DNA of 64,000 nt from a virus. Taxonomy: Duplodnaviria > Heunggongvirae > Uroviricota > Caudoviricetes. Positions 1 to 35,480 of the stretch are shown here, piece after piece. How positions within the stretch are numbered: the first letter of the stretch is position 1; each line of letters begins with the position of its first letter. The stretch lies in the IMG/VR virus record IMGVR_UViG_3300036951_000304; one strand, given 5' to 3'. The position numbers were made by a program, and so were the translations under genes. The notes under the pieces are model-generated. The model saw only the letters and a program-made list of their open reading frames with translations. It was not told the DNA's origin and searched no databases.

Positions 1-111
1 ACCTTTTTATTTGCCACGGCCTGTGTATACACGGTTATGACCACATCAATCAAAACACCCGCAATAAAAACTAATATTAAATAAAAAAACAAACTCATAT
101 CACACATTTTC

Positions 112-185
112 TGGAGCGGGGTAAGGGAATTGAACCCTCGGCATCAGCTTGGAAGGCTGAGGTATTACCACTATACGAACCCCGC
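112..185 (-). tRNA. tRNA-Gly (anticodon UCC)
   Basis: CCA encoded (tgg 112-114), 7-bp acceptor gcggggt/accccgc, T-arm ggg-aattgaa-ccc, anticodon loop CUUCCAA. Confidence 0.75.
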
Positions 186-455
186 TTATTTTTTCTCAAA
201 ATCCGATGTTGGAAATCCCGTCCAAAGAAGAAAATAATTGGCTTCTTTTTCGGCAATCTTTGTGTTCAAACAGAACTTATTTTTCTTCAGATAAGAAACC
301 AACCACTTTCTGAATTGTTCTTCCTGCATCTTTGTCCATCTGTATTTCAGATACCATCTCTCTTTCTTTACTACGGAAGGATCATAAATGGCACCAACCA
401 TTTCAAACATCTTCGACAGGATTTCATCCAGATTTTTTTGTGTCAACTGCTTCAT
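186..455 (-). CDS. hypothetical protein (start trimmed to first Met after tRNA-Ile)
   Basis: ORF 186..554 overlaps tRNA 470-544; N-terminal part translates tRNA sequence, internal Met MKQLTQ at 455. Confidence 0.35.
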   Translation of the reverse strand: MKQLTQKNLDEILSKMFEMVGAIYDPSVVKKERWYLKYRWTKMQEEQFRKWLVSYLKKNKFCLNTKIAEKEANYFLLWTGFPTSDFEKK

Positions 456-469
456 AATAACTCCAATAT

Positions 470-544
470 TGGTAGCCGGGAGAGGAGTTGAACCTACCGT
501 CAAGCGATTATAAGTCGCACGTTCTACCATTGAACTACCCGGCC
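470..544 (-). tRNA. tRNA-Ile-like (anticodon UAU), weak T-stem
   Basis: tgg 470-472, acceptor agccggg/cccggcc, anticodon loop CUUAUAA; T-stem only 3 bp. Confidence 0.5.
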
Positions 545-552
545 ATATTTTC

Positions 553-667
553 AATCGGGGAACGGGGTCACGCCCGTTTCATAGGTTAGGGTCAACCATC
601 CTCTTTTCTGTCAGGTCAAGGCGGTCTATGAAACCCACTTCCATTATCGCTGACACGATACCCCGAT
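553..667 (-). ncRNA. long tRNA-like element (about 115 nt)
   Basis: perfect 7-bp acceptor pairing atcgggg (554-560) with ccccgat (661-667); T-arm-like aacggg-gtcacg-cccgtt; central region too long for canonical tRNA. Confidence 0.3.
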
Positions 668-672
668 ATTTC

Positions 673-758
673 TGGTGAGGAAGGTAGGATTTGCACCTAC
701 ACGCCCTTTCGAGCACAAGCCCCTCAGACTTGCGTGGCTGCTATTACACCACTTCCCC
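673..758 (-). tRNA. tRNA-Leu (anticodon GAG), class II
   Basis: 86 nt, CCA encoded, A73, anticodon loop CUGAGGG, 15-nt variable arm, T-arm gtagg-atttgca-cctac. Confidence 0.7.
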
Positions 759-760
759 AT

Positions 761-839
761 TGGTGCCGGAGGGGAGAGTCGAACTCCCACACTCCTAATT
801 TTAAGTCAGGAAGGTATGCCTAATTCCCTTCACTCCGGC
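761..839 (-). tRNA. tRNA with anticodon UAA (Leu-type) but short variable arm
   Basis: CCA encoded, acceptor gccggag/ctccggc, T-arm gggag-agtcgaa-ctccc, anticodon loop CUUAAAA, 12-nt D-loop, 5-nt variable region. Confidence 0.55.
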
Positions 840-1414
840 TAATCTATAAACTTTGTTTTATTTCCTTTTCTGATAACCGCCTCGATGGAAAACTCCCCGG
901 CCGCTATTACATATCTGTTATCTTTTATGTAATAACTGTAGTTATCGTCACACTTCTTCACATAAATTATATCATAATCCGTAAGATTGTCAATAATAAA
1001 TGGTATCAATCCTATTGTAACTGGCGGCTCATTTTTATCAATCACAAAGAACCATTTGTGATTTGCATTACCAGCAGAAGGTAGTGTCCTTCTCAATTCG
1101 AATAAATCACGATGAGGAACAAAAATAATGAGATATCCATCATCTCTCAATATTCTCCACCAGTTCTTTATTGCCACATCCGGTTTTTCCAAATCCTCAA
1201 GGCAATGTGACGAATATACGAAGTCATAAGTATTGTCCGGAATACCTTTCATATAAGTTGCATCGTGATCTTTACTGATGGATAGATCCCACATATCCAC
1301 ATCCGGAAGAATGGGGTCATTACCACAACCTATATCAATACCTCTTCCATTACAATACTTCTGGAAAAATCCCTCTTCGTGCCTTCTCTTTCTTGCTTTT
1401 CTTGTCTCGGCCAT
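839..1414 (-). CDS. class I SAM-dependent methyltransferase
   Basis: motif I GIDIGCGND, post-I acidic DVDMWD, DFVYSSHCLE, LRDDGYLII; stop overlaps tRNA 5' end by 1 nt. Confidence 0.6.
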   Translation of the reverse strand: MAETRKARKRRHEEGFFQKYCNGRGIDIGCGNDPILPDVDMWDLSISKDHDATYMKGIPDNTYDFVYSSHCLEDLEKPDVAIKNWWRILRDDGYLIIFVPHRDLFELRRTLPSAGNANHKWFFVIDKNEPPVTIGLIPFIIDNLTDYDIIYVKKCDDNYSYYIKDNRYVIAAGEFSIEAVIRKGNKTKFID

Positions 1415-1438
1415 ATCTGTTTTACTTCTATATATTTA

Positions 1439-1516
1439 TGGTGCCGGTGCAGGGAGTTGAACCCCGAAAACCTGCGTTCTAAGCGCAGTATGTATGCCAA
1501 GTTCCATCACACCGGC
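1439..1516 (-). tRNA. tRNA with anticodon UAG (Leu-type) but class I architecture
   Basis: CCA encoded, acceptor gccggtg/caccggc, anticodon stem CUGCG/CGCAG loop CUUAGAA, short variable region, atypical D-arm. Confidence 0.5.
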
Positions 1517-1524
1517 ATAAATTT

Positions 1525-1599
1525 TGGAGCGGATGAACGGATTTGAACCGTCAACCTTCTCGATGGCAACGAGATACTCTACCGTTGAGTTACATCCGC
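1525..1599 (-). tRNA. tRNA-Gly (anticodon GCC)
   Basis: CCA encoded, acceptor gcggatg/catccgc, anticodon stem UCUCG/CGAGA loop UUGCCAU. Confidence 0.7.
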
Positions 1600-1607
1600 A
1601 TATTTTC

Positions 1608-1690
1608 TGGAGCCGATGGAGGGAATCGAACCCCCACAGATTTCTCCGGCTGATTACAAATCAGCTGCCATACCATTAGGCGACATCGGC
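1608..1690 (-). tRNA. tRNA-like, anticodon UGU (Thr-type) with 13-nt variable region
   Basis: CCA encoded, acceptor gccgatg/catcggc, anticodon stem GCUGA/UCAGC loop UUUGUAA; 83 nt. Confidence 0.45.
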
Positions 1691-1697
1691 ATTATTC

Positions 1698-1774
1698 TGG
1701 AATGGGGCGCCCGAATCTAACGGGCTTCGGCATTTGAGCCTTGCTTCTCATAGCCAGTCCATACCAGACCCCAT
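1698..1774 (-). ncRNA. tRNA-like element, anticodon arm not resolvable (possible pseudo-tRNA)
   Basis: good acceptor (atggggt/gccccat) and T-arm gcccg-uuagauu-cgggc but no canonical anticodon stem-loop. Confidence 0.3.
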
Positions 1775-1782
1775 ATATTTAT

Positions 1783-1858
1783 TGGAGCCGGAAATCGGAT
1801 TTGAACCGATAATCTTGTCCTTACGAAAGACCTGCGTTTCCAGTTGCGCTATTCCGGC
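1783..1858 (-). tRNA. tRNA-Thr (anticodon CGU)
   Basis: CCA encoded, acceptor gccggaa/ttccggc, T-arm ucgga-uuugaac-cgau, anticodon loop UUCGUAA with 4-bp stem. Confidence 0.55.
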
Positions 1859-1860
1859 AT

Positions 1861-1937
1861 TGGTGGAGACAGGCGGAATTGAACCGCCGACCTCTTGCTC
1901 TTCAGGCAAGCGCTACTACCTACTGAGCTACATCTCC
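1861..1937 (-). tRNA. tRNA-Phe (anticodon GAA)
   Basis: CCA encoded, T-arm ggcgg-aattgaa-ccgcc, anticodon stem CUUGC/GCAAG loop CUGAAGA, D-arm GCUCAGUAGGUAG. Confidence 0.75.
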
Positions 1938-1940
1938 AAT

Positions 1941-2005
1941 ATTCCCGAGCGGGAATAACCGATAACATTTCTTCCGAAAAGAACCGAATTATTCCCGAGC
2001 GGGAA
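1941..2005. repeat. two copies of hairpin ttattcccgagcgggaa 49 bp apart
   Basis: identical 16-17 nt palindromic units at 1941-1957 and 1990-2006 downstream (minus sense) of the nucleotidyltransferase gene. Confidence 0.5.
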
Positions 2006-2108
2006 CTTTGTTCTATACGGGCTCCCATCCACGGCAGCCATGAGGACTAACCTGATGAGCCTCCCCATTCCTTGTAGGAATGGTCAGCGGGGCATCCCCT
2101 CAAACCCG

Positions 2109-2885
2109 TTATTTCAATAATAGTCTCCTTGCAACATCCATACAGAGTTCGTTTACTCTTACTCTGTCAGGAGAATGAGGAAGTGGAGATAACTCATACC
2201 ACCTTTCAAAGTCCTCATCAAACTTGGAAACATTCTCCATCAACTCATCGTAAGACCAGTATCCGTTTCTCAAAAAAACAAGAAACTCTGCTTCCGGTCT
2301 TGGAAAAGTAAGATTTCCGGTAAGTAACAGTTCCTTACCTTCATACATCAATCTCATCAGATGGGCAGCGTGTTTCGTATCATACCCAAACTTTTCCTCA
2401 AGGGCAAATCTTTCGGGATTTCTGTTTTTCTTCCAGAGTTCCCATGCTTCCCTTTCGGATTTATCGGTAGGAACAAAACCGTCCATCCATCTTTTATGGT
2501 TCTTCAACCTCTTGAGCTGAGAATGAGCATATCCTGAGAAAGTGTGTTTTGCTTTCTTGGAAAGAAAAGCATCTCTCACTTTCAGAACATCAAACCACTC
2601 ATCAGAATGGTTCAACCATTTATCTTCAGGAACAAAAAGCAACTCGACCATATTCGGGTTACAGTCAAGAGTAAGTTTCAGGAACTTTCTGAACTCATAA
2701 AAAACCTTGTCCTGTTTCTTATCCTCAACCTGTTCAACCCTGTCAAGAAAGCCGAGCCAGTATCTTTCCGGTGCAAGGAACACACCCCTTTCATCCACAT
2801 CAGAAGTTTCCGTTGCGGTTCCGTAAAGATGACTTCCGGCTACAGTCCTGAACAATAACTTGTAATCACTTGGTAGTCCTAACAT
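2109..2885 (-). CDS. pol-beta superfamily nucleotidyltransferase (minimal NTase-like)
   Basis: GSHLYGTATETSDVDERGVF = GS..Y..(n)..SD.D nucleotidyltransferase signature near N-terminus. Confidence 0.55.
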   Translation of the reverse strand: MLGLPSDYKLLFRTVAGSHLYGTATETSDVDERGVFLAPERYWLGFLDRVEQVEDKKQDKVFYEFRKFLKLTLDCNPNMVELLFVPEDKWLNHSDEWFDVLKVRDAFLSKKAKHTFSGYAHSQLKRLKNHKRWMDGFVPTDKSEREAWELWKKNRNPERFALEEKFGYDTKHAAHLMRLMYEGKELLLTGNLTFPRPEAEFLVFLRNGYWSYDELMENVSKFDEDFERWYELSPLPHSPDRVRVNELCMDVARRLLLK

Positions 2886-2890
2886 TTTAT

Positions 2891-3472
2891 TTACCTTTCC
2901 TCTTTATAAGGTCTTATCCAATCATTGTAGTTATAATTCAATGTTGGAAAATTTTTCTTGATATGATTTACAAAAGCCATTATCTCCTGTAATTCAACCG
3001 GATAAAATTTCCACCAATCAACACCTACATTGATGAGGATATTTCCTCTTTTTGTATCATTCCAAGTTATCCACTTTGCTCTCCAATTCAAGTGAACGTG
3101 AGCAACAAGGTTGATATTGATATCCCTGTTTATGTGTCTTGGATCGTGGACACAATACAAAAGATTATTTCCGTTTCTCAAAGTGAGATTCTCAATTTTT
3201 GTCTTGAGCCCGTTGTTTTTATCGTGGTTTCCCCTGATAAAAACCTTGTCACCATTCAGCCTCTCAATATAATAATCCACTCTGTTACATTCATTGAAAG
3301 CAAAATCTCCAACAAATATAACGGTGTCCTTTGGTTTCACCCTTTCGTTCCAGTTCCTTATCAAAACCCTATCCATCTTTTCCACGGTCTTGAAAGGCCT
3401 GTTGCAGAAACCAATCATATCTTCGTGACCGAAGTGAGTATCCGCTGTTATAAATGTTCTTCCCATTTTCAA
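2891..3472 (-). CDS. calcineurin-like metallophosphoesterase
   Basis: motifs DTHFGH, GDFAFNE, GNHD (IRGNHDKN), HVHL typical of MPP superfamily. Confidence 0.65.
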   Translation of the reverse strand: MKMGRTFITADTHFGHEDMIGFCNRPFKTVEKMDRVLIRNWNERVKPKDTVIFVGDFAFNECNRVDYYIERLNGDKVFIRGNHDKNNGLKTKIENLTLRNGNNLLYCVHDPRHINRDININLVAHVHLNWRAKWITWNDTKRGNILINVGVDWWKFYPVELQEIMAFVNHIKKNFPTLNYNYNDWIRPYKEER

Positions 3473-3476
3473 TCCT

Positions 3477-3552
3477 TGGTGGAGCGTGAGAGACTTGAAC
3501 TCTCGACCCCAAGACTGCCAGCCTTGTGCTCTCCCAACTGAGCTAACGCCCC
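3477..3552 (-). tRNA. tRNA-Ala (anticodon GGC), G3-U70
   Basis: CCA encoded, acceptor GGGGCGU with G3-U70 wobble, T-arm gagag-acuugaa-cucuc, anticodon loop CUGGCAG. Confidence 0.6.
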
Positions 3553-3555
3553 ATT

Positions 3556-3849
3556 CTATTCAATTACAAATAATTCATCCGGTAAAAATTCCTCAGCAGT
3601 TACTACCTTCCCCGTACTCGCGTACCAGATACTAAAACCCAAATCTTTTAATTGTAATGCCTGTTCCTTCGTCATATTTACCCTGTATGACAAACTATTG
3701 GTTCCCGTGATAGTATCCATAAAGTCAACAATGTCTTTTGCTTCTTTCAGACCAAGAGAAAGCACAGACCTCAACTCCTTGATGACTTGTATTTTCATGA
3801 GGTTACCATTCGGTCTTACATTTTTGTATATGTAAAAATCGTGATACAT
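3556..3849 (-). CDS. ribosomal protein bL12 (L7/L12) C-terminal-domain-like protein lacking the N-terminal L10-binding domain
   Basis: [24 protein letters not shown] matches the L7/L12 CTD core [24 protein letters not shown]; start trimmed to Met after tRNA-Glu overlap. Confidence 0.65.
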   Translation of the reverse strand: [97 protein letters not shown]

Positions 3850-3860
3850 ATTCTTTCCTC

Positions 3861-3935
3861 TGGTACTCCCAAAGAGATTTGAACTCATATTTCCGGCGTG
3901 AGAGGCCAGCGTCCTAACCATTAGACGATGGGAGC
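3861..3935 (-). tRNA. tRNA-Glu (anticodon CUC)
   Basis: CCA encoded, acceptor GCUCCCA/UGGGAGU (G1-U72), anticodon stem CUGGC/GCCGG loop CUCUCAC. Confidence 0.6.
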
Positions 3936-4005
3936 AAAAATTGTATAATTAGGCATAGTATGTCGAAAATCTCTCGACCTTCTGTGCCTCTTTCGACACT
4001 TTTTA

Positions 4006-4081
4006 TGGCGGGCCTTGAAGGATTTCAACCCTCATCTGCTTGTTTTGGAGACAAGTGTGTTTGCGTTTACACCAAAGACCC
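4006..4081 (-). tRNA. tRNA-Trp (anticodon CCA)
   Basis: CCA encoded, acceptor GGGUCUU/AAGGCCC, anticodon stem CUUGU/ACAAG loop CUCCAAA. Confidence 0.7.
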
Positions 4082-4094
4082 GTATTTTATAAAA

Positions 4095-4182
4095 ATTGTA
4101 TCAACGGAATTGAACCGTCCACCACCGCCAAATGACGGAGCTTCAGACCACTAATCGGCACATACGTTTGCCTTTGATACAA
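4095..4182 (-). ncRNA. class-II-length tRNA-like (88 nt), anticodon arm unresolved, CCA not encoded
   Basis: perfect acceptor ttgtatc/gatacaa, T-arm gacgg-uucaauu-ccguu; central 56 nt does not give canonical anticodon arm by eye. Confidence 0.35.
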
Positions 4183-4191
4183 CTTTATTTT

Positions 4192-4267
4192 TGGTGGGTA
4201 TGACAGGATTTGAACCTGCGCTCTATCGGTTAAGAGCCGATTGCATTTGCCACTTTGCTACATACCC
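4192..4267 (-). tRNA. tRNA-Lys (anticodon CUU)
   Basis: CCA encoded, acceptor gggtatg/cataccc, anticodon stem AUCGG/CCGAU loop CUCUUAA. Confidence 0.7.
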
Positions 4268-4276
4268 ACATATTTT

Positions 4277-4351
4277 TGGTGAAGCCGAAGGGAATTGAAC
4301 CCTCAACCTACTGGTTAAAAGCCAGTTGCTCTACCGTTGAGCTACGACCTC
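4277..4351 (-). tRNA. tRNA-Lys (anticodon UUU)
   Basis: CCA encoded, anticodon stem ACUGG/CCAGU loop CUUUUAA, acceptor pairs with two wobbles. Confidence 0.7.
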
Positions 4352-4359
4352 ATATTTCG

Positions 4360-4469
4360 TGGGATGTGGTAGGATTATACCTACTGGCATCACTATTTTA
4401 TAGGGATAAAAAGTTGGCATCCCTATAGAGTGCCCCTTCAGGCCTTACCAACATCGTAGCTCACATCCC
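4360..4469 (-). ncRNA. long tRNA-like element (about 110 nt) with internal 9-bp hairpin
   Basis: terminal pairing gggatgtg (4361-4368) with cacatccc (4462-4469), T-arm-like gtagg-attata-cctac, inner hairpin tatagggat..atccctata. Confidence 0.3.
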
Positions 4470-4474
4470 ATATA

Positions 4475-4552
4475 TGGTAGACCCGACGAGATTTGAACTC
4501 GCAATCTCCACCTTGAAAGGGTGGCGGCATAATCCGTTTCGCCTACGGGTCT
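4475..4552 (-). tRNA. tRNA-Glu (anticodon UUC)
   Basis: CCA encoded, acceptor agacccg/cgggtct, anticodon stem CCACC/GGUGG loop CUUUCAA. Confidence 0.7.
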
Positions 4553-4637
4553 ATATTTTGGAGGGCGGTTTATTCTCATTAACCTACGGATTACCGCGGC
4601 ATCCGGTGGGGCTTTAACCCACATCTCCCATATTTTC

Positions 4638-4713
4638 TGGAGGGCCCGATGGGAATTGCACCCACAATCTACGGTTTTGCAGACCGTCGCCTTAGCTATT
4701 TGGCCACGAGCCC
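4638..4713 (-). tRNA. tRNA-Cys (anticodon GCA)
   Basis: CCA encoded, anticodon stem ACGGU/ACCGU loop CUGCAAA, T-arm with aauugca loop. Confidence 0.7.
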
Positions 4714-4718
4714 ATTAA

Positions 4719-4830
4719 GTGTAGATGCTTGCAAGTCATCTACACAGAACCGATTTTCACGGTTCTCTCTTTCCATAGGTTGATGAACGGTTATGATTTC
4801 CCGTTCCGTTCCCTATGGCGTGATGGAAGA
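4719..4830. other. nested stable hairpins in spacer between tRNA-Cys and tRNA-Asp
   Basis: 9-bp stem gtgtagatg/catctacac, 7-bp agaaccg/cggttct, 7-bp ccatagg/cctatgg enclosing gaacgg/ccgttc. Confidence 0.45.
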
Positions 4831-4844
4831 GTACCACCAAGTTC

Positions 4845-4920
4845 TGGCGACCTTGATGGGAGTTGCACCCACGCCTACTTGATTGACAGTCAAGTGCTCT
4901 GGCTACTAAGCTACAAGGCC
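4845..4920 (-). tRNA. tRNA-Asp (anticodon GUC)
   Basis: CCA encoded, anticodon stem CUUGA/UCAAG loop CUGUCAA. Confidence 0.7.
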
Positions 4921-5044
4921 ATTCTATAGATGGGTAGGTTTCCAACCCTACTGGACGGTGTTTACCCTCTTGTGTGACCAAGCTTTAGTAGAAGCCCACA
5001 ATACTATCAACCGTTACTGATACTACTATATCACCATCTATTTT

Positions 5045-5121
5045 TGGGGTGACAGACGGGAATCGAACCCGCTCCTTACAGGGGCCACAACCCTGTGCCT
5101 CACCATTTGGCTTCTGCCACC
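5045..5121 (-). tRNA. tRNA-His (anticodon GUG) with encoded G-1
   Basis: CCA encoded, anticodon stem CAGGG/CCCUG loop UUGUGGC, extra 5' G (from c5121) opposite C73 discriminator. Confidence 0.75.
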
Positions 5122-5129
5122 ATATATTT

Positions 5130-5219
5130 TGGTGGGAGATGGAGGAGTTGAACCACCCGTCTGCCGCCCCACATAATTATAGACAACGGTTTTACAGACC
5201 GCCGTGGGGAACATCTCCC
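5130..5219 (-). tRNA. tRNA-Tyr-like (anticodon loop CUGUAAA, GUA), 90 nt, atypical D/variable regions
   Basis: CCA encoded, perfect acceptor gggagat/atctccc, T-arm, anticodon loop identical to bacterial tRNA-Tyr; D-arm region shortened and variable region very long. Confidence 0.5.
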
Positions 5220-5226
5220 GTGTTTT

Positions 5227-5299
5227 TGGTAGCGGGTGAGGGAATCGAACCCCCTGAACCTTGGTTATGAGCCATGGCGAGATACCAATCTTACCCGCG
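5227..5299 (-). tRNA. tRNA-Met or Ile2 (anticodon CAU) with C1-U72 mismatch
   Basis: CCA encoded, acceptor CGCGGGU/ACCCGCU, anticodon loop CUCAUAA. Confidence 0.6.
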
Positions 5300-5380
5300 A
5301 AAATCCCGCCCGGGGAATTGAAGGAACCTTATTCTAACGATGTTATACATCGTGCTGGATTCGATACCAGCATCACCGGG
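5300..5380 (-). ncRNA. degenerate tRNA-like spacer element
   Basis: flanked by conserved inter-tRNA motifs, contains ggaattgaagg T-loop-like sequence but stems do not pair; hairpin gctgg-tatcgaat-ccagc. Confidence 0.2.
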
Positions 5381-5386
5381 ATATTT

Positions 5387-5463
5387 TGGTGGAGCGTGAG
5401 AGATTCGAACTCTCTGCCTTCTCGGTGCAAGCGAGATGCTCTCCCATAGTGAGCTAACGCCCC
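5387..5463 (-). tRNA. tRNA-Ala (anticodon UGC), G3-U70
   Basis: CCA encoded, acceptor GGGGCGU G3-U70, perfect T-arm gagag-auucgaa-cucuc, anticodon stem UCUCG/CGAGA loop CUUGCAC. Confidence 0.75.
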
Positions 5464-5561
5464 ATATTTTTTCTGGGCGTGGTGATGGCCGGTATTGGAC
5501 ATAAGTTTTATCCGGCTTCCTCCTCACATTTCTGCAATCACCACGACATTTTTTTACAGAT

Positions 5562-5672
5562 TGACATTATCCCATTCCTAATCACTCTACCGCGCACTCC
5601 CGGTTTCCGGCCGGCGGCTCGTCATAGATTCAATATAGTCACAGAAATAATCTCGAGCGCCAATCTGTATAT
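5562..5672. repeat. structured spacer element copy A (paralog of 6228-6298)
   Basis: terminal 8-bp stem acagattg/caatctgt, contains agaTTGACAttatccc and GC-rich inner hairpins ccgg-ttt-ccgg, ccggccgg. Confidence 0.5.
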
Positions 5673-5686
5673 TCTGTTTTCAAAGA

Positions 5687-5762
5687 TGGTAGAATCGGCG
5701 GGAGTTGAACCCACGACCTTTGCCGTGTCAGGGCAACGCTCTCCCAACTGAGCTACGATTCT
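5687..5762 (-). tRNA. tRNA-Val (anticodon GAC)
   Basis: CCA encoded, canonical D-arm UAGCUCAGUUGGGAGAGC, anticodon stem UUGCC/GGCAA loop CUGACAC. Confidence 0.75.
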
Positions 5763-5858
5763 ATAGTGAGTAAGGTGTTTTCGTTGTGGTTATCCTCACT
5801 CATTACCACACCATTACATATAGGGCTCTTACCGCCTATATGAGTAATTCATAGAGGT

Positions 5859-5960
5859 GTTGTCAGGTGGGAGTTGAACCCACATTTCCTTTATGGAAGT
5901 GTCCGCCGCGCGACGAATTTACTTCCTCAAAGTTGTCCTATCCATTAGACGAACTGACCA
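5859..5960 (-). ncRNA. long tRNA-like element (about 100 nt); anticodon arm replaced by 12-bp hairpin with 20-nt loop
   Basis: acceptor ttgtcag/ctgacca, T-arm gtggg-agttgaa-cccac, D-arm-like GUCU..GGAC, long hairpin CUUUGAGGAAGU...ACUUCCAUAAAG. Confidence 0.3.
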
Positions 5961-5997
5961 AGGCGTTCCGGACTACCTTGTTTACACCTATATTTTC

Positions 5998-6073
5998 TGG
6001 TAGCCGGTGAGGGAATTGAACCCCCGGCCCTCACGGTGTAAACGTGATGCTCTCCCAATTGAGCTAACCGGCT
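5998..6073 (-). tRNA. tRNA-Val (anticodon UAC)
   Basis: CCA encoded, acceptor agccggt/accggct, anticodon stem UCACG/CGUGA loop UUUACAC. Confidence 0.75.
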
Positions 6074-6077
6074 ATAT

Positions 6078-6213
6078 AAAGAGGTTGTAGCATATACATC
6101 GTATACTATGTAATATGTGTCTAACTCTTATCTACTTCGTATCCCTTGCAATCAGGCTACAGGTCAGCCCGGCCTCAGGCTGACATTCGATGAAGTGTTT
6201 CCACTCACAACCT
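6078..6213. other. structured spacer with long-range inverted repeat and inner hairpin
   Basis: aagaggttg (6079-6087) pairs caacctct (6204-6211); inner stem gtcagcc/ggctgac. Confidence 0.35.
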
Positions 6214-6227
6214 CTATATTTTGTGTA

Positions 6228-6298
6228 GATTGACATTACCCTGTTACGAGGTGACGCCCCCATTTGTAACAGTAATAATTCCGGACGCCAATCTACAT
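6228..6298. repeat. structured spacer element copy B (paralog of 5562-5672)
   Basis: terminal stem gtagattgac/gccaatctac, contains TTGACAttaccc, inner 7-bp hairpin ctgttac/gtaacag. Confidence 0.5.
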
Positions 6299-6300
6299 TC

Positions 6301-6376
6301 TGGTCGGAGAGACAGGATTTGAACCTGCGACTTCTTGATCCCAAGTCAAGCACGCTACCATCTGCGCCACTCTCCG
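6301..6376 (-). tRNA. tRNA-Pro (anticodon UGG)
   Basis: CCA encoded, acceptor cggagag/ctctccg, anticodon stem CUUGA/UCAAG loop CUUGGGA. Confidence 0.75.
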
Positions 6377-6379
6377 ATA

Positions 6380-6440
6380 TTTTTCAAAGAACAAAAACAA
6401 AAAAGGGAGATTGAGTCAAAACCCAATCTCCCTTCAATAA
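6380..6440 (-). terminator. rho-independent terminator (minus strand)
   Basis: 9-bp stem gggagattg/caatctccc followed on minus strand by TTTTTTGTTTTTG. Confidence 0.6.
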
Positions 6441-6639
6441 TTCTACTCTATAGGATTTGACTCTTCTATTCTATAGTGCCCCCCTCTGCTGGCTTTGTTT
6501 CAATCGCAAGGCTCGGCACTAAATAAAACCAACAATCTTTATGTAGAAAATATTTCGTCATAGAATCCTCTGAAATTATATGTCAATATTATATATGTAA
6601 ATTATAACACAGTTTACATAGAATGTAAACAATTTTTTC

Positions 6640-6713
6640 TGGCTCCGGTAAATGGAATCGAACCAATAACTAATGGTTAACAGCCATTCGTGATACCGTT
6701 TCACCATACCGGA
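6640..6713 (-). tRNA. tRNA-Asn (anticodon GUU)
   Basis: CCA encoded, acceptor tccggta/taccgga, anticodon stem AAUGG/CCAUU loop CUGUUAA. Confidence 0.7.
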
Positions 6714-6996
6714 ATGTGTTTCCTGCTGGCCACCAGTTATTCCCTCGCTGGGGTGGCTCCACGGCGGCGAGGCCAGATGTTGTCAGGACAGGAAACGGTG
6801 ACAACCCACGGATTATAATAAAGAGGGCGAACAGATGGAATGGCGGTTCCTCTGTTCCTTACGAGTTCGTTCAACTTGCCGCAACAAGTTCATCTCTACT
6901 ACCCTCTAAATTTTCAAAGAATACGACATATCATATCATAATACGGTATCCCTGTCAAGAAAAATGTTTCTCAATAATTTCAATGACTTACGCAAT

Positions 6997-7051
6997 AAAA
7001 AAGGGCAGTATCTCCTTTACTTCGTAGGGGGCTTATACTGCCCTTTGGCAA
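6997..7051. terminator. bidirectional rho-independent terminator downstream of tmRNA
   Basis: 9-bp stem gggcagtat/atactgccc flanked by aaaaaa upstream and ttt downstream on plus strand. Confidence 0.6.
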
Positions 7052-7107
7052 GATTCTATGAAAAGAATCGCTCGCCCTTCATTATATGACCCCCTCATTG
7101 TTATTTA

Positions 7108-7470
7108 TGGTGGAGGTGGCCGGAATCGAACCGGCGTCCAAAAGCCCCGATAAATCAGGTGAATTACACGCTTCTCTGTTTGTTGCGGTCAATTCGATGC
7201 TCCTAACAGAAAACCGATACATCAAATCCAGTTTCTTTATTACCGTGAAATAGGCGAAACAACCTATTTTCCCGGCTCCCCATTGATTTGAACAATTTCC
7301 AACCCCGATGGAGAGGAGAGTATGAAAATTGTGGGCGGTTAACTAAGCCGCCATTGCGTAACTATAACTGTAGTCTGCGCTTATATGATAATCAGTTGAT
7401 AACGGAGCCGATGATTATCTCCGGCGTGCGCCTGAAGTACCAAAACCTCTGTCGAAGCCTGTGCACCCCC
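7108..7470 (-). ncRNA. ssrA: tmRNA (SsrA-like) with tag reading frame ADYSYSYAMAA-UAG
   Basis: 5' GGGGGUGCACAGGCUUCGAC resembles tmRNA 5' GGGGCUG..GGAUUCGAC; 3' tRNA-like end GCCGG-UUCGAUU-CCGGC-CACCUCC-A-CCA; acceptor G3-U70; internal ORF GCA GAC UAC AGU UAU AGU UAC GCA AUG GCG GCU UAG. Confidence 0.75.
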
Positions 7471-7491
7471 AAATTTTCAAGGAACGATTGT

Positions 7492-7520
7492 ATTCTATCA
7501 CATATTTATGGCGATGTAAA
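7492..7520 (-). promoter_or_regulatory. sigma70-like promoter for tmRNA (minus strand)
   Basis: minus-strand TTTACA-17 bp-TAGAAT about 24 nt upstream of tmRNA 5' end. Confidence 0.5.
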
Positions 7521-7537
7521 TAAAAATATCGAAAATG

Positions 7538-7566
7538 TTTACATTTCAATGTTTTTCTGGTATAAT
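7538..7566 (+). promoter_or_regulatory. sigma70-like promoter with extended -10
   Basis: TTTACA (7538-7543) 17-bp spacer ending TGG then TATAAT (7561-7566); 31 nt upstream of HU start. Confidence 0.65.
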
Positions 7567-7597
7567 AAATCAAAAATCTATGAAAGGAGAAAACCGT

Positions 7598-7873
7598 ATG
7601 AACAGGAAAGTTTTGTCAGACTTCGTTTCAAATGATATGAGTATTACCAAGACCGATGCTAAACTTGCCGTTGATTCTGTAGTTTCTGGTATTCTGAACG
7701 GTCTTATGAAAGGCGAAAAGGTTTCCTTGATGGGTCTGGGCACTTTCTATACATTGAATATGCCAGAGAGAAAAATCAGAAACCCGAAAACGGGGGAACA
7801 AATCACCGTTGCGCCCAAGAAAGTCATCAAATTCAAAGCATCAAAACTACTCAAGAAAGAATTGAATAAGTAA
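7598..7873 (+). CDS. HU/IHF-family histone-like DNA-binding protein
   Basis: MNRKVLSDF..GEKVSLMGLGTFYTLNMPERKIRNPKTGEQITVAPKKVIKFKASKLLK matches HU arm region; RBS aaaggag; start set to Met at 7598 inside ORF 7535..7873. Confidence 0.75.
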   Translation: MNRKVLSDFVSNDMSITKTDAKLAVDSVVSGILNGLMKGEKVSLMGLGTFYTLNMPERKIRNPKTGEQITVAPKKVIKFKASKLLKKELNK

Positions 7874-7876
7874 AAT

Positions 7877-8767
7877 ATGGAAACAAAAATCTGGACATTT
7901 GCGTATGAACCTCAAAAATTTGAGGATATAATATTGAATGATGTGGTGAAGCCGAGATTACAGAAGGCCTTGACCGAAATACCCAATCTGATGTTGGTGG
8001 GCCCGCCCGGAGTTGGTAAGGGAACCTATACAAATATCTTTCTGAAGGAAACAAAACTCGATTTTATCAAATTGAATTGTTCCGATGAAACATCAATTGA
8101 TGGTATCAGGACGAAGGTGAAATCATTTGCTACGGCCCTCGGCGTGACCAAGATGAAAATCGTTGTAATGAACGAAAGTGACTATCTCAGCCCAGCGGCC
8201 CAGGCAATGCTAAGGGATTTGATAGAGCAGGTGGAAGGTATTACAAGATTCATCTTCCAATGTAACTACGGTCACAAGATGATAAAAGAAATCCAATCGA
8301 GATGCCAGGTTATCGAGTTGACCAATCCACCCGCCAAAGAAATCTATCAGCATTGTATGGATATACTGAAGAAGGAAGGTGTGAAGGTGGGAGACACAAA
8401 AGCCATTGTGACCATCATCAAGCAATTGTACCCCGATATCAGAAAAATCATTCATACTTTACAAATGAATACTATTGATGGTAAAATAGATGGTATCAAA
8501 GTGGATGAAGTATCAGAGATACATTTCCAGATATTCAAGGCAGCCCAAGAGAAAAATCTGGATGATATCAGAAAACTCTTGAGAGGACATTCAATCAATT
8601 ATCCCGATTTGTATCTTCATTTCTATGAAAGCGCGGGAAAATTGAAAAGTCCTGGCGACGCCATCCTAGCAATAGGAGAATACCTTTATAGAGACAGCCT
8701 TGTGGCAAACAAGGAAATCAATTTTATGACGATGGTTGTTTCCCTTATAAAGAAGGGAGTTCTATGA
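7877..8767 (+). CDS. clamp loader ATPase subunit (T4 gp44-like AAA+)
   Basis: Walker A MLVGPPGVGKGTY, Walker B-like VVMNESD, sensor motifs; adjacent to putative clamp. Confidence 0.7.
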   Translation: METKIWTFAYEPQKFEDIILNDVVKPRLQKALTEIPNLMLVGPPGVGKGTYTNIFLKETKLDFIKLNCSDETSIDGIRTKVKSFATALGVTKMKIVVMNESDYLSPAAQAMLRDLIEQVEGITRFIFQCNYGHKMIKEIQSRCQVIELTNPPAKEIYQHCMDILKKEGVKVGDTKAIVTIIKQLYPDIRKIIHTLQMNTIDGKIDGIKVDEVSEIHFQIFKAAQEKNLDDIRKLLRGHSINYPDLYLHFYESAGKLKSPGDAILAIGEYLYRDSLVANKEINFMTMVVSLIKKGVL

Positions 8768-14478: not shown

Positions 14479-14507
14479 GAGGGGGAGCAGAAATGCTCCC
14501 CTTTTTT
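14479..14507 (+). terminator. rho-independent terminator after SSB gene
   Basis: stem gggggagc-agaaa-tgctcccc followed by TTTTTT. Confidence 0.7.
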
Positions 14508-14523
14508 GGGTCTAAATAATTAT

Positions 14524-35386: not shown

Positions 35387-35396
35387 AATCTTATAT

Positions 35397-35472: not shown

Positions 35473-35480
35473 ATATTTTC

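What the first reader, a model, noticed from the sequence alone, without database searches (positions are those of the whole stretch)
100..7520. Translation-takeover island: about 30 minus-strand tRNA genes plus tmRNA, a bL12-CTD protein and RNA-processing enzymes
Hand-folding gives roughly 25 canonical tRNAs and several atypical ones, all on the minus strand.

Identified anticodons: Gly UCC/GCC, Leu GAG, Phe, Trp, Lys CUU/UUU, Glu CUC/UUC, Cys, Asp, His with G-1, Met CAU, Ala GGC/UGC with G3-U70, Val GAC/UAC, Pro, Asn, Thr, Tyr-like.

Most encode CCA. They are separated by a conserved spacer: sense CCA-(G)AAAAUAU, plus-strand atatttt(c)tgg.

The same block encodes a tmRNA, a ribosomal bL12 C-terminal-domain protein, a nucleotidyltransferase, a metallophosphoesterase and a SAM methyltransferase.

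The density and composition suggest a dedicated module for reprogramming or repairing host translation.
Basis: partly seen in the sequence, partly recalled or inferred. Interest (0 to 1): 0.75.

Follow-up and report, generated by a model that had tools for sequence, protein, structure and literature searches.

The report
Phage tRNA array with tmRNA
This is the main tRNA gene cluster of a large, uncultured T4-like phage: 25 tRNAs, a tmRNA, RNA-repair-type enzymes and several conserved tRNA-shaped RNAs of unknown role. It is a known kind of phage equipment for keeping its own protein synthesis going, not a new system.

Summary
ARAGORN and Rfam canonical minus-strand tRNAs in 112-6713. They also call a strong tmRNA at 7108-7470 (153.9 bits). 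Two more tRNAs are found only at relaxed thresholds: Met-CAU and a Tyr-GUA with an aberrant D region. Every one encodes CCA and is preceded by an A/U-rich AAAAUAU-type leader.

Pfam confirms an RlaP RNA-repair nucleotidyltransferase, a metallophosphoesterase, a class-I SAM methyltransferase and a 97-aa protein made only of a bL12 C-terminal-like domain.

The flanking genes are T4-type replication genes (gp32, gp44/62, RNase H), so this is a phage. Contigs identical to the window add eight tRNAs beyond its left edge. With three Arg tRNAs at 34-36 kb, that gives 36 tRNAs for all 20 amino acids.

The likely host is a Smithellaceae/Syntrophaceae bacterium with GC-richer codon usage.

Large phages with tRNA sets, tmRNA, L7/L12 and RlaP are already described. 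This is a new member of a known kind.

The less ordinary part is about a dozen structured cassettes between the tRNAs. At least four are conserved tRNA-shaped RNAs without an anticodon loop and show compensatory changes. They resemble T4 species 1 RNA in architecture only.

The parts
7492..7520 (-). sigma-70-like promoter upstream of the tmRNA (TTTACA-17-TAGAAT)
7108..7470 (-). tmRNA, tag ADYSYSYAMAA, G3-U70 acceptor, encoded CCA
   Evidence: 153.9 bits against 47; sequence
6997..7043 (-). terminator-like hairpin plus U-run after the tmRNA
   Evidence: read from the sequence; not listed by the scan tool (loop longer than 8)
6930..6958 (-). sigma-70-like promoter (TTGACA-17-TATGAT)
6714..6905 (-). 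190-nt structured leader in front of tRNA-Asn; lineage-specific, absent in L018 and L002
6640..6713 (-). tRNA-Asn GUU
6601..6629 (-). sigma-70-like promoter (TTTACA-17-TATAAT)
6466..6561 (-). 31-aa ORF (MTKYFLHKDCWFYLVPSLAIETKPAEGGTIE); the peptide is conserved in L018
6402..6435 (-). intrinsic terminator (15-bp stem plus U-run)
6301..6376 (-). tRNA-Pro UGG
6226..6297 (-). family-B hairpin RNA, copy 2 (GUAGAUUGGCG...GGUAAUGUCAAUCUAC), z = -3.4
6080..6222 (-). structured cassette closed by AGAGGUUGU/ACAACCUCU, z = -3.6
5998..6073 (-). tRNA-Val UAC
5855..5990 (-). element X: conserved tRNA-shaped RNA with outer helix, 5' hairpin, acceptor-like helix, D arm, T arm, and a long GCGC-capped hairpin in place of the anticodon arm
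   Evidence: 99% paired, 8 pairs changed on both sides in 3 sequences; z = -3.3
5765..5850 (-). structured spacer
   Evidence: z = -2.1
5687..5762 (-). tRNA-Val GAC
5555..5670 (-). family-B hairpin RNA, copy 1; a homologue lies in L002 at about 8772-8878 with a covarying closing helix
5470..5548 (-). cassette closed by CGUGGUGAU/AUCACCACG, ending ...GCCCA
5387..5463 (-). tRNA-Ala UGC (G3-U70)
5305..5380 (-). cassette with the order T-like hairpin, capped helix, D-like hairpin (permuted, YrlA-like topology)
   Evidence: not a YrlA match
5227..5299 (-). tRNA-Met CAU with a 4-nt D loop and C1-U72 mismatch
   Evidence: homologue L002 9713-9785
5130..5219 (-). tRNA-Tyr-like GUA: good acceptor and anticodon arm, long variable arm, aberrant D region
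   Evidence: L002 has a canonical Tyr at the same relative place
5045..5121 (-). tRNA-His GUG with encoded G-1
4925..5041 (-). tRNA-like cassette: 8-bp closing helix with a T-like hairpin next to its 3' strand
   Evidence: z = -2.7
4845..4920 (-). tRNA-Asp GUC
4716..4840 (-). four consecutive hairpins, z = -6.2
4638..4713 (-). tRNA-Cys GCA
4556..4629 (-). element Z: conserved RNA ordered T-like arm, capped helix, D-like arm; a 9-nt loop carries a 6-nt palindrome (CCGCGG here, CUGCAG in L018)
4475..4552 (-). tRNA-Glu UUC
4360..4470 (-). element E4474: conserved tRNA-like RNA with 8-bp closing helix, covarying T-like arm and conserved loop UGCCAACUUUU
   Evidence: (z = -3.4)
4277..4351 (-). tRNA-Lys UUU
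4192..4267 (-). tRNA-Lys CUU
4094..4183 (-). element Y: conserved tRNA-shaped RNA with 7-bp acceptor, canonical T arm, long covarying variable arm, a 4-bp/4-nt 'anticodon' hairpin and no CCA
4006..4081 (-). tRNA-Trp CCA
3936..4005 (-). 70-nt hairpin/promoter-like element; it recurs just upstream of a tRNA in L002 and L016
   Evidence: z = -4.4
3861..3935 (-). tRNA-Glu CUC, 64/75 identical to Smithellaceae tRNA-Glu
3556..3849 (-). 97-aa protein made only of a bL12 C-terminal-like domain
3477..3552 (-). tRNA-Ala GGC (G3-U70)
2891..3466 (-). calcineurin-like metallophosphoesterase, 191 aa
2109..2885 (-). RlaP (PF10127) Pol-beta-type RNA nucleotidyltransferase, 258 aa
   Evidence: function from PMC12776372
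1990..2108 (-). structured spacer after RlaP
   Evidence: z = -1.9
1861..1937 (-). tRNA-Phe GAA
1783..1858 (-). tRNA-Thr CGU
1694..1773 (-). tRNA-like cassette with a T-like hairpin (CCCG-UUAGAUU-CGGG), ending ...CCAUUCCA; absent in L018
1608..1690 (-). tRNA-Thr UGU with an unusually long variable region (83 nt)
1525..1599 (-). tRNA-Gly GCC
1439..1516 (-). tRNA-Leu UAG with a short variable arm
839..1414 (-). class-I SAM methyltransferase, 191 aa; contains a 12/12 sigma-70 consensus at 966-993
761..839 (-). tRNA-Leu UAA with a short variable arm (35.5 bits)
673..758 (-). tRNA-Leu GAG
553..666 (-). tRNA-like cassette closed by UCGGGG/CCCCGA; absent in L018
   Evidence: z = -2.2
470..544 (-). 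tRNA-Ile UAU (reads AUA)
186..455 (-). 89-aa ORF, no Pfam family, conserved in L018
112..185 (-). tRNA-Gly UCC

Best explanation
What it is. The interval is the largest part of the tRNA super-cluster of a large (more than 116 kb), uncultured, T4-like lytic phage from anaerobic-digester and wetland metagenomes. Its host is probably a Smithellaceae/Syntrophaceae bacterium.

How it most likely works.
1. Several sigma-70-type promoters drive polycistronic precursors.
2. Host RNase P and 3'-end nucleases release the units at the conserved A/U-rich AAAAUAU leaders. Because CCA is encoded in every gene, no CCA-adding step is needed.
3. The product is a nearly complete decoding set of 36 tRNAs genome-wide. 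By standard wobble rules it covers 60 of 61 sense codons. It matches the phage's A/U-ending codon preference.
4. Phage translation becomes largely independent of the host tRNA pool, whether that pool is merely mismatched to phage codons or is depleted or cleaved by host tRNA-targeting defences.

Accessory genes.
- RlaP would add back one or two nucleotides lost from damaged RNA 3' ends.
- The neighbouring metallophosphoesterase would remove the 2',3'-cyclic or 3'-phosphate ends left by ribotoxins.
- The tmRNA, working with host SmpB, would free ribosomes stalled on broken mRNAs.
- The bL12-CTD-only protein cannot join the ribosomal stalk. At most it binds translational GTPases in trans.
- The interspersed tRNA-shaped RNAs (X, Y, Z, E4474) keep the acceptor/T-arm 'top half', so they are processed like tRNAs. 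They act as stable small RNAs of unknown target.

Shown: the gene content, structures, conservation and codon match.
Inferred: expression, processing, all enzymatic roles and any counter-defence role.
For: - tRNA and tmRNA calls.
- Universal encoded CCA and the leader motif.
- Promoters and terminators.
- Phage identity: gp32, gp44, gp62-like, T4 RNase H and class II RNR are adjacent. An IMG/VR viral contig is identical.
- Eight further tRNAs lie on 100%-identical contigs.
- Syntenic arrays exist in relatives L002 (32 tRNAs plus tmRNA plus RlaP plus Metallophos) and L018/L020.
- Codon usage: phage GC3 is 0.40 against 0.53 in the host sample. AGA+AGG make up 79% of Arg codons against 21%. AUA is 34% against 16%. 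GCA, CCA, UCA, ACA, GGA and CUA are all enriched, and each has a cognate phage tRNA.
- Host clue.
- RlaP biochemistry: it adds 1-2 NMPs to the 3'-OH of damaged RNA and restores aminoacylation of over-damaged tRNA; T4 NrdC.11 is a family member (PMC12776372).
- Large phages combine tRNAs, RlaP, ligases and phosphoesterases against anticodon nucleases (PMC7824862).
- Phage tRNAs as counter-defence: PMC10264068, PMC11464382, PMC11555353.
- tRNAs, tmRNA and L7/L12 in huge phages: PMC7162821.
Against: - No RNA ligase, polynucleotide kinase, SmpB or CCA-adding enzyme was found in about 48 window ORFs. A complete repair pathway is therefore not demonstrated, although the genome is incomplete here.
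- The sister lineage L018/L020 has only a tmRNA remnant and a truncated RlaP. These are not essential.
- The one phage tRNA that could be compared with its host counterpart in the same anticodon arm, Glu-CUC, is identical there. That is the opposite of the 'escape mutation' pattern.
- The host assignment rests on one chimeric or recombinant contig type and on tRNA similarity.
- The metallophosphoesterase and methyltransferase hits are generic.
- There are no expression data.
Confidence: 0.62

Rival explanations
1. Pure codon-usage compensation. An AT-rich phage (GC3 0.40) infects a GC-richer host. It carries tRNAs only to speed translation of its own A/U-ending codons. The tmRNA, RlaP, phosphoesterase, methyltransferase and bL12-like genes are unrelated passengers that happen to be inserted between tRNA genes.
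For: - There is a strong codon-preference shift, with a cognate phage tRNA for every phage-preferred codon.
- tmRNA and RlaP are lost or truncated in a sister lineage while the tRNA order is kept.
- The Glu-CUC anticodon arm is identical to the host's.
Against: - The set is nearly complete. It includes tRNAs for codons the phage uses less than the host does, such as GGC, GAC, UGC, AGC and CGU. Compensation alone does not require these.
- RlaP is a characterised RNA-repair enzyme that co-occurs with tRNAs in large phages (PMC12776372, PMC7824862).
- The host codon sample is only 11 genes from a contig of uncertain integrity.
Confidence: 0.22
2. An array in flux. Much of the interval is evolutionary debris: decaying tRNA pseudogenes, tRNA fragments fused by recombination, and small selfish insertions. 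On this view the 'atypical' elements have no function, and only the canonical tRNAs matter.
For: - Most cassettes are lineage-specific. Elements at 553-666, 1694-1773, 4716-4840, 4925-5041, 5305-5380, 6080-6222 and 6714-6905 have no counterpart in L018 or L002, where the tRNAs abut with spacers of 2-9 nt.
- Fragment-level similarity exists between Z and the 3' part of X (repeat family D20).
- Homing-endonuclease genes lie in or near these arrays: GIY-YIG at 14506-14892, HNH genes in L003/L004, and segB inside the T4 cluster.
Against: - X, Y, Z and E4474 are conserved at 83-90% identity, as well as the tRNAs are. Their substitutions are concentrated in helices and are compensatory.
- G-U pairs fit only the tRNA sense strand.
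- Most cassettes fold better than shuffles, with z from -2 to -6.
- Most cassettes sit behind the same leader motif as the tRNAs.
Confidence: 0.12
3. The region is not phage translation equipment but an integration or recombination module, or a bacterial 'tRNA array unit' on a mobile island. On this view the tRNA genes serve as attachment sites.
For: - Contig L010, and three similar places not shown, joins a Smithellaceae-like chromosome (gltX-tRNA-Glu) to the phage exactly inside tRNA-Glu-CUC. The crossover falls in a 31-nt stretch identical in host and phage. This is the layout expected at an attL junction.
- tRNA array units on plasmids and chromosomes are known in mycobacteria (PMC5966550, PMC12803027).
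Against: - No integrase lies next to tRNA-Glu.
- The flanking genes are T4-type lytic replication genes.
- Other contigs break at the same tRNA (L014 and L015 start at window 3919/3920), as expected for an assembly repeat.
- Relatives keep the same phage synteny.
- One possible att site does not explain 36 tRNAs.
Confidence: 0.04

Closest known systems
tRNA gene clusters of large and jumbo phages (T4 with 8 tRNAs; huge phages with up to 67 tRNAs plus tmRNA, L7/L12 and tRNA-repair genes; Al-Shayeb et al. 2020, PMC7162821; Iyer et al. 2021, PMC7824862)
   Same: - Dense same-strand tRNA genes sit next to T4-type replication genes.
- The tRNA set is near complete.
- A tmRNA, an L7/L12-like protein, an RlaP nucleotidyltransferase and a phosphoesterase are present.
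- Homing endonucleases lie nearby.
   Different: - There is no sequence relative among 50,697 deposited phage records.
- No RNA ligase or polynucleotide kinase was seen in the 64 kb.
- The bL12-like protein has the C-terminal domain only.
- The array is interleaved with about a dozen structured non-tRNA cassettes.
T4 small stable RNAs rnaC (species 1, 139 nt) and rnaD (species 2, 119 nt) in the T4 tRNA cluster
   Same: Like X, Y and E4474, rnaC lies directly after a tRNA in the cluster and is 120-140 nt long. It folds into a closing helix, long internal hairpins and a canonical T arm next to the 3' strand. Its function is unknown.
   Different: The covariance model of X scores only 8 bits on rnaC, over the T arm alone. 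There is no sequence homology. The relation is analogy of architecture and position, not family membership.
YrlA-type bacterial and phage Y RNAs (tRNA mimics bound by Ro60/Rsr, encoded in RNA-repair operons with RtcB and RlaP; Chen et al. 2014, PMC4201824)
   Same: - Z and the 5305-5380 cassette have the YrlA order: T-like arm, capped acceptor-like helix, D-like arm, with the ends leaving through a fourth helix.
- They lie in a block that contains RlaP.
- A more distant RlaP homologue (67% identity) lies 4 kb from a Ro60 gene in another phage.
   Different: - Rfam YrlA gives no match even at E <= 10.
- There is no Ro-binding helix or GNCGAA motif.
- No TROVE-sized ORF is present in the window.
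- The T and D loops are not canonical.
Bacterial tmRNA (RF00023)
   Same: Full-length match of 153.9 bits. The tRNA-like domain has G3-U70, A73 and CCA. The tag reading frame ends ...AA-stop.
   Different: It is phage-encoded. The tag ends AMAA rather than the common ALAA. No smpB is nearby. It is diverged in L002 (84.6 bits) and reduced to a 5' remnant in L018.
Pnkp/Hen1 and T4 Pnkp/Rnl1 tRNA repair systems
   Same: A phosphoesterase, a nucleotidyltransferase-fold enzyme and a SAM methyltransferase are encoded among tRNAs.
   Different: - No kinase or ligase domain was found.
- The methyltransferase shows no specific similarity to Hen1; its only PDB hit is a generic type-11 methyltransferase at E = 0.003.
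- The nucleotidyltransferase is RlaP, not a ligase.

Membership tests
Phage tRNA gene cluster | Many tRNA genes at high density, recognised by independent tRNA detectors | tested here: met
   23 genes are called by both ARAGORN and the Rfam tRNA model within 6.6 kb, all on one strand. Two more are called at relaxed settings.
Phage tRNA gene cluster | Located in a phage genome | tested here: met
   gp32, gp44 clamp loader, clamp-loader A subunit, T4 RNase H, endolysin-type amidase and SLT are present. An IMG/VR viral contig is identical. No capsid or tail gene was examined.
tmRNA (RF00023) | Covariance-model score above the curated threshold over the full model | tested here: met
   153.9 bits against 47, model positions 1-374.
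tmRNA (RF00023) | Alanine-accepting tRNA-like domain (G3-U70, CCA) and a tag ORF ending in a stop | tested here: met
   The acceptor GGGGGUG/CACCUCC gives G3-U70, followed by A73 and CCA. The tag is ADYSYSYAMAA*.
tmRNA (RF00023) | SmpB partner available | not testable with these tools
   No SmpB was found among the scanned window ORFs. A host SmpB is presumed. The genome is incomplete.
Ribosomal protein bL12 | C-terminal alpha/beta domain (PF00542) | tested here: met
   Pfam gives 35.1 bits against 25.9, but over only 28 of 67 profile positions. PDB L7/L12 chains match at E = 6e-4. A full-library search aligns residues 4-74 to the C-terminal parts of proteins of bL12 length. The AF2 secondary structure is beta-alpha-alpha-beta-alpha-beta, at low confidence.
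Ribosomal protein bL12 | N-terminal dimerisation and bL10-binding domain plus flexible hinge | tested here: not met
   The protein is 97 aa and the C-terminal-domain-like region begins at about residue 4-16. There is no room for an N-terminal domain and none matches. It is therefore a bL12-CTD-like protein, not a ribosomal bL12.
RlaP (PF10127) | Match to the family profile above threshold | tested here: met
   82.8 bits against 23, E = 4e-23. There are 1000 homologues, all carrying PF10127.
RlaP (PF10127) | Genomic association with an RNA ligase (RtcB or ATP-dependent) | tested here: inconclusive
   No ligase was found in about 48 scanned window ORFs or in the called genes of L002 and L010. 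The phage genome is longer than 116 kb and most of it was not seen.
RlaP (PF10127) | 3'-terminal NMP addition to damaged RNA | not testable with these tools
   This is a biochemical property shown for Pseudomonas RlaP (PMC12776372).
YrlA / Y RNA (RF02553) | Covariance-model match | tested here: not met
   There is no hit on Z or on 5305-5380 at E <= 10. The only weak hit (22.8 bits against 69) lies over two ordinary tRNAs.
YrlA / Y RNA (RF02553) | Adjacent Ro60 (TROVE) gene and Ro-binding helix | tested here: not met
   No TROVE hit was found. Only two window ORFs exceed 400 aa (an RNR and a kinase/methyltransferase). No GNCGAA motif occurs in the closing helices.
T4 species 1 RNA (rnaC) | Sequence or structure homology to T4 rnaC | tested here: not met
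   Model R1, built from X, scores 8.1 bits over the T arm only. The architecture and position are similar.
Pnkp/Hen1 RNA repair | Kinase plus phosphoesterase plus ligase polypeptide, and a Hen1 2'-O-methyltransferase | tested here: not met
   Only a generic Metallophos (closest PDB entry 1xm7, a hypothetical protein) and a generic Methyltransf_11 were found. There is no kinase or ligase.

The most novel reading that the evidence does not exclude
The phage array encodes a set of conserved, tRNA-processed but non-decoding tRNA mimics.
- X has a GCGC-capped rod in place of the anticodon arm.
- Y has a 4-nt 'anticodon' loop.
- Z has a permuted, YrlA-like order and a palindromic kissing-type loop.
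- E4474 has a conserved UGCCAACUUUU loop.

On this reading they form a new class of phage small RNAs. They might work as decoys or adaptors for enzymes that recognise the tRNA top half: host tRNA-targeting nucleases, or the phage's own RlaP and phosphoesterase. They would be the counterparts of the T4 species 1 and 2 RNAs, whose function is unknown.
Probability: 0.2. Interest if true: 0.7.

Novelty: new member of a known kind. Interest (0 to 1): 0.38.

Why it matters
As a tRNA/tmRNA/RlaP cluster, it adds one more example, from a poorly sampled group, to a well-documented theme: a T4-like phage of syntrophic Smithellaceae in anaerobic digesters.

It gives a usable host clue and a clean case of a near-complete, CCA-encoding tRNA set matched to phage codon usage.

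The part worth a specialist's attention is the family of conserved tRNA-shaped RNAs between the tRNAs. Such RNAs have been annotated in T4 as small stable RNAs (species 1 and 2) without a function. Here several carry compensatory substitutions and sit beside an RNA-repair nucleotidyltransferase. That offers concrete, testable candidates for what such RNAs do.

Tried and rejected
- Megablast of 1-8000 against 50,697 phage records gave no match. Blastn of X and Y gave none. The tmRNA matched only over 35-40 nt of its tRNA-like 3' end.
- Rfam at E <= 1 over 1-8000, and at E <= 10 over 4540-5400, assigned none of the spacer elements to any family. Weak tRNA-Sec, Tymo-tRNA-like, mascRNA and YrlA hits lie on tRNAs or fall below threshold.
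- ARAGORN with introns allowed and a score threshold of 80% produced implausible giant-intron calls, which I discarded.
- I considered X as an intron-containing or aberrant tRNA-Gln, because its next-best model hits are tRNA-Gln genes and it contains CUUUGAG. I rejected this. The arm is a continuous covarying helix capped by GCGC, and the relatives have normal Gln tRNAs.
- I considered Y as tRNA-Thr/Ser/Phe. No 5-bp stem with a 7-nt anticodon loop is conserved between the window and L018.
- The metagenome pattern scan for X returned 7 loci, none matching the model. X is known only from three phage lineages.
- A single-sequence AlphaFold model of the bL12-like protein had pLDDT 54. Foldseek on it gave only noise.
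- A search for window targets complementary to the conserved loops of X, Y, Z and E4474 found only the genes' own opposite strands or chance 1-mismatch hits.
- I considered the Pnkp/Hen1 idea for the phosphoesterase, nucleotidyltransferase and methyltransferase. It is not supported.
- I considered an integration (att) reading of contig L010. It remains unresolved, and an assembly chimera is more likely.

Full report

Yes. ARAGORN finds 23 tRNA genes between 112 and 6713, all on the minus strand. It also finds a tmRNA at 7108-7470 with tag ADYSYSYAMAA. Rfam's tRNA model calls the same 23 genes at 35-74 bits against a threshold of 29, and calls the tmRNA at 153.9 bits against 47 over the full model.

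The tools add Ile-UAU, Leu-UAA, Leu-UAG and a second Thr.

Two further tRNAs are missed at default settings:
- Met-CAU (5227-5299) is found by relaxed ARAGORN.
- A Tyr-GUA-like gene (5130-5219) reaches only 26.8 bits, and only on the tRNA-Sec model. It has a good acceptor stem, anticodon arm and long variable arm, but an aberrant D region.

Both have adjacent, ARAGORN-called homologues in the same order in a related phage (L002 9713-9785 and 9792-9879).

All 25 tRNAs and the tmRNA encode CCA. His has an encoded G-1 opposite C73, and both Ala tRNAs have G3-U70.

The spacer motif is real:
- Over the window's 29 tRNA/tmRNA genes, position -1 is U in 23 and -2 is A in 21, with consensus AAAAUAU.
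- AAATAT occurs 20 times on the sense strand and 3 times on the antisense strand in 1-7600.
- CCARAAAATAT with one mismatch or fewer occurs 22 times in the window against 7.45 +/- 2.6 in shuffles.

Pfam confirms the four proteins:

| ORF (minus strand) | Pfam family | E-value | Note |
|---|---|---|---|
| 2109-2885 | RlaP PF10127 | 4e-23 | |
| 2891-3466 | Metallophos | 2.6e-5 | |
| 839-1414 | Methyltransf_11/23 | 7e-9 | |
| 3556-3849 | Ribosomal_L12 C-terminal domain | 1.6e-8 | 35.1 bits against 25.9; only 28 residues aligned |

**2. What genome is this?**

Directly next to the block, on the other strand, lie HU, a gp44-type clamp-loader ATPase, the clamp-loader A subunit, gp32 and T4-type RNase H. 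A class II ribonucleotide reductase follows. Further on are an amidase, an SLT lysozyme and a GIY-YIG endonuclease.

An IMG/VR viral contig is 100% identical. The RlaP protein occurs on contigs up to 116 kb. Nothing similar exists among 50,697 deposited phage genomes at the DNA level. This is an uncultured, large, T4-like phage.

**3. The block is only part of the tRNA region.**

Contigs identical to the window (L010-L015) continue past the window's left edge. They add Thr-GGU, Ile-GAU, Leu-CAA, Gln-UUG, Gln-CUG, Ser-UGA, Ser-GCU and Ser-GGA. Three Arg tRNAs lie at 34.4-35.6 kb.

The phage therefore has 36 tRNAs for all 20 amino acids. By standard wobble rules (my inference) they read every sense codon except CGG.

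Related phages have syntenic arrays:
- L002/L003/L004 (RlaP 82% identical) have 32 tRNAs, a tmRNA, RlaP and Metallophos next to HU and the clamp loader.
- L018/L020 (75-89% DNA identity) keep the window's tRNA order. They retain only a 5' remnant of the tmRNA and lack the 5' half of RlaP.

The accessory genes are therefore dispensable and the set is not a fixed module.

**4. Host and codon usage.**

Contig L010, and three similar places not shown, joins a bacterial segment to the phage. The bacterial segment runs nusB, rib operon, nrdR, glyA, fabF, acpP, rpmF, yceD, gltX.

The gltX product is 70-85% identical to Smithellaceae/Syntrophaceae MAG proteins. In 17 of 17 such loci examined, gltX is followed by tRNA-Glu-CUC.

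The junction lies inside that tRNA, within a 31-nt stretch identical in host and phage. Phage Glu-CUC is 64/75 identical to the host gene, and 44/46 over the first 46 nt. Phage Gln-CUG is not host-like.

Other contigs break at the same tRNA and no integrase is nearby. I therefore read L010 as an assembly chimera, or an occasional recombinant, that points to the host. I do not read it as proof of integration.

Using the 11 bacterial genes of L010 as a host sample gives the following:

| Measure | Phage | Host sample |
|---|---|---|
| GC3 | 0.40 | 0.53 |
| AGA+AGG as share of Arg codons | 79% | 21% |
| AUA as share of Ile codons | 34% | 16% |

GCA, CCA, UCA, ACA, GGA and CUA are also enriched 1.5-2.9-fold in the phage. 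Every one of these codons has a cognate phage tRNA. The phage also carries tRNAs for codons it uses less than the host does.

**5. Anatomy of expression (inferred).**

Promoter-like sites lie at 7520-7492, 6958-6930 and 6629-6601. A 12/12 consensus site lies inside the methyltransferase ORF at 993-966. An intrinsic terminator lies at 6435-6402. A second terminator-like hairpin follows the tmRNA.

A 70-nt hairpin/promoter-like element (3936-4005) recurs immediately upstream of tRNAs in L002 and L016. A 31-aa ORF (6561-6466), between a promoter and a terminator, is conserved at the peptide level in L018.

The array is therefore several transcription units, not one operon.

**6. The 'atypical tRNAs'.**

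The gaps between tRNAs are not plain spacers. About a dozen cassettes of 70-145 nt begin right after the same AAUAU leader and are closed by a 5-9-bp helix. Most have a T-arm-like hairpin abutting the 3' strand of that helix. Most fold better than shuffled controls, with z from -2 to -6.

Most are lineage-specific: in L018 or L002 the corresponding tRNAs abut with 2-9 nt between them. Four are conserved.

- **X (5855-5990).** It is present in the window, in L002/L022 and in L018/L020 at 83-86% identity. Its parts are:
  - an outer helix;
  - an invariant 5' hairpin, CAAGGU-AGUCCGGAAC-GCCUUG;
  - a 5-bp acceptor-like helix;
  - a D arm and a canonical T arm;
  - a 16-bp interrupted helix capped by GCGC in place of the anticodon arm.

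  On three sequences, 99.2% of cells pair and 8 pairs change on both sides. In the slid controls 42-50% of cells pair, with 0-3 such pairs. Several of its G-U pairs fit only the tRNA sense strand.

  The covariance model finds it nowhere else in the loci held. Its next-best hits are tRNA-Gln genes, which suggests X derives from a tRNA.
- **Y (4094-4183).** It has a perfect 7-bp acceptor, a canonical T arm, a long variable arm and a GGCA/UGCC D stem. Its 'anticodon' hairpin has only a 4-bp stem and a 4-nt loop. No CCA is encoded. Compared with L018, the acceptor and variable arm carry compensatory changes while the core is invariant.
- **Z (4556-4629).** The first 65 nt are identical in L018 except in one 9-nt loop, where the palindrome CCGCGG becomes CUGCAG. 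That pattern is expected for a self-complementary kissing loop. The order of elements is T-like arm, capped helix, D-like arm. This is the YrlA order (PMC4201824). The 5305-5380 cassette shares it.
- **E4474 (4360-4470).** It has conserved termini, a conserved loop UGCCAACUUUU and a covarying T-like arm: GUAGG/CCUAC in the window becomes GUGGG/CCCAC in L018.

A fifth family, B, has copies at 5555-5670 and 6226-6297 and at about L002 8772-8878. It has a covarying closing helix around conserved GGCGCUCGAGAUUAU... and ...GGARUAAUGUC.

None of these matches any Rfam family or any deposited phage.

**7. How it most likely works.**

Established: the gene content, folds, conservation and codon match.

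Inferred mechanism:
1. Host RNA polymerase transcribes the units.
2. RNase P and 3' nucleases release tRNAs, tmRNA and the tRNA-like RNAs at the A/U-rich leaders.
3. Encoded CCA removes any dependence on CCA addition.
4. The near-complete, phage-codon-matched set decouples phage translation from the host tRNA pool.

That decoupling pays off in two situations: when the pool is merely mismatched, and when it is cleaved or depleted by tRNA-targeting defences. Such counter-defence has been shown experimentally for other phages (PMC10264068, PMC11464382, PMC11555353).

Roles of the accessory genes:
- RlaP adds one or two nucleotides to damaged RNA 3' ends. It is needed to restore aminoacylation of over-trimmed tRNA, and T4 NrdC.11 belongs to the family (PMC12776372). 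In jumbo phages its distribution follows that of RNA ligases (PMC7824862).
- The adjacent metallophosphoesterase is a plausible 3'-end healing enzyme, but its hit is generic.
- No ligase or kinase was seen in the window, so a full repair pathway is not shown.
- The tmRNA has all the identity elements and presumably uses host SmpB.

**8. The bL12-like protein.**

It has the C-terminal domain only. It therefore cannot bind bL10 or join the ribosomal stalk.

A full-library search shows that the best non-self relatives are not ribosomal proteins. They are 200-1000-aa proteins with 3-7 tandem complete L12 C-terminal domains, and one is fused to a TIR domain. The domain is therefore used outside the ribosome, possibly in conflict systems.

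The phage protein may bind translational GTPases or such a sensor in trans. This is speculation.

**9. Comparison with what is known, and verdict.**

Large phages with big tRNA sets, tmRNA, L7/L12, RlaP and phosphoesterases are described (PMC7162821, PMC7824862). T4 itself has small stable RNAs, rnaC and rnaD, inside its tRNA cluster, and a homing endonuclease there.

T4 rnaC shares the architecture of X, Y and E4474: a closing helix, long hairpins and a terminal T arm. It has no detectable homology to X.

The finding is therefore a new member of a known kind. The 'takeover island' reading is only partly supported.

The conserved tRNA-shaped RNAs are the one feature that goes beyond routine annotation. 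Their function is unknown.

Noticed in passing
L010 8878-9030 (= window 3861-3935); L026-L105: A contig type joins a Smithellaceae/Syntrophaceae-like chromosome (gltX-tRNA-Glu-CUC) to the phage. The crossover lies inside tRNA-Glu, within a 31-nt stretch identical in host and phage. It is a host clue. It is either an assembly chimera or a real recombination or integration event.
   Followed up: partly
proteins P0123-P0130 (relatives of window 3556-3849): Many non-ribosomal proteins of 200-1000 aa carry 3-7 tandem complete bL12 C-terminal domains. One (P0123, 686 aa) has an N-terminal TIR domain and another has LRV/HEAT repeats. The bL12 C-terminal domain seems to be reused outside the ribosome, possibly in defence systems.
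   Followed up: partly
window 34422-35556: Three more tRNAs lie 27 kb from the main array, flanking a DNA N6/N4 methyltransferase gene (34502-35386). They are Arg ACG, CCU and UCU. The CCU-UCU pair is separated by the same CCAGAAAATAT spacer.
   Followed up: partly
window 761-839, 1439-1516, 1608-1690: tRNA-Leu UAA and UAG are only 78-79 nt, with short variable arms; the L002 homologues are 85 nt. tRNA-Thr UGU is 83 nt with an unusually long variable region, a trait shared with L002 (85 nt).
   Followed up: no
window 966-993: A perfect 12/12 sigma-70 consensus (TTGACA-16-TATAAT with an upstream TG) lies inside the methyltransferase ORF. It is oriented to drive the downstream Leu, Leu and Ile tRNAs.
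   Followed up: no
window 7470-7490, 6906-6920, 6377-6392, 5672-5686: A second leader motif, (U)UCUUUGAAAA(U)UU, recurs between a promoter or terminator and the first mature RNA of a unit: the tmRNA, the Asn leader, Pro and family-B copy 1. It is also seen in L002 and L018.
   Followed up: no
L005 13457-13680, L007 5408-5631: In a different phage group, whose RlaP is 67% identical, a HEARO RNA (161 and 124 bits) precedes an RRXRR/HNH protein gene. A Ro60 (TROVE) gene lies 4 kb upstream of RlaP. There are no tRNAs in these loci.
   Followed up: no
L018 8240-8651; L003 15683-16219; window 14506-14892: Homing-endonuclease-type genes sit inside or near the tRNA arrays of this phage group, as segB does in the T4 tRNA cluster. 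They include an HNH-like ORF between Leu-UAA and Leu-GAG in L018, HNH_3 genes in L003/L004 and a GIY-YIG gene in the window.
   Followed up: no
window 26194-27423: A 409-aa ORF combines weak protein-kinase (Pkinase/OspG) and Methyltransf_9 matches. This is an unusual fusion in a phage replication region.
   Followed up: no
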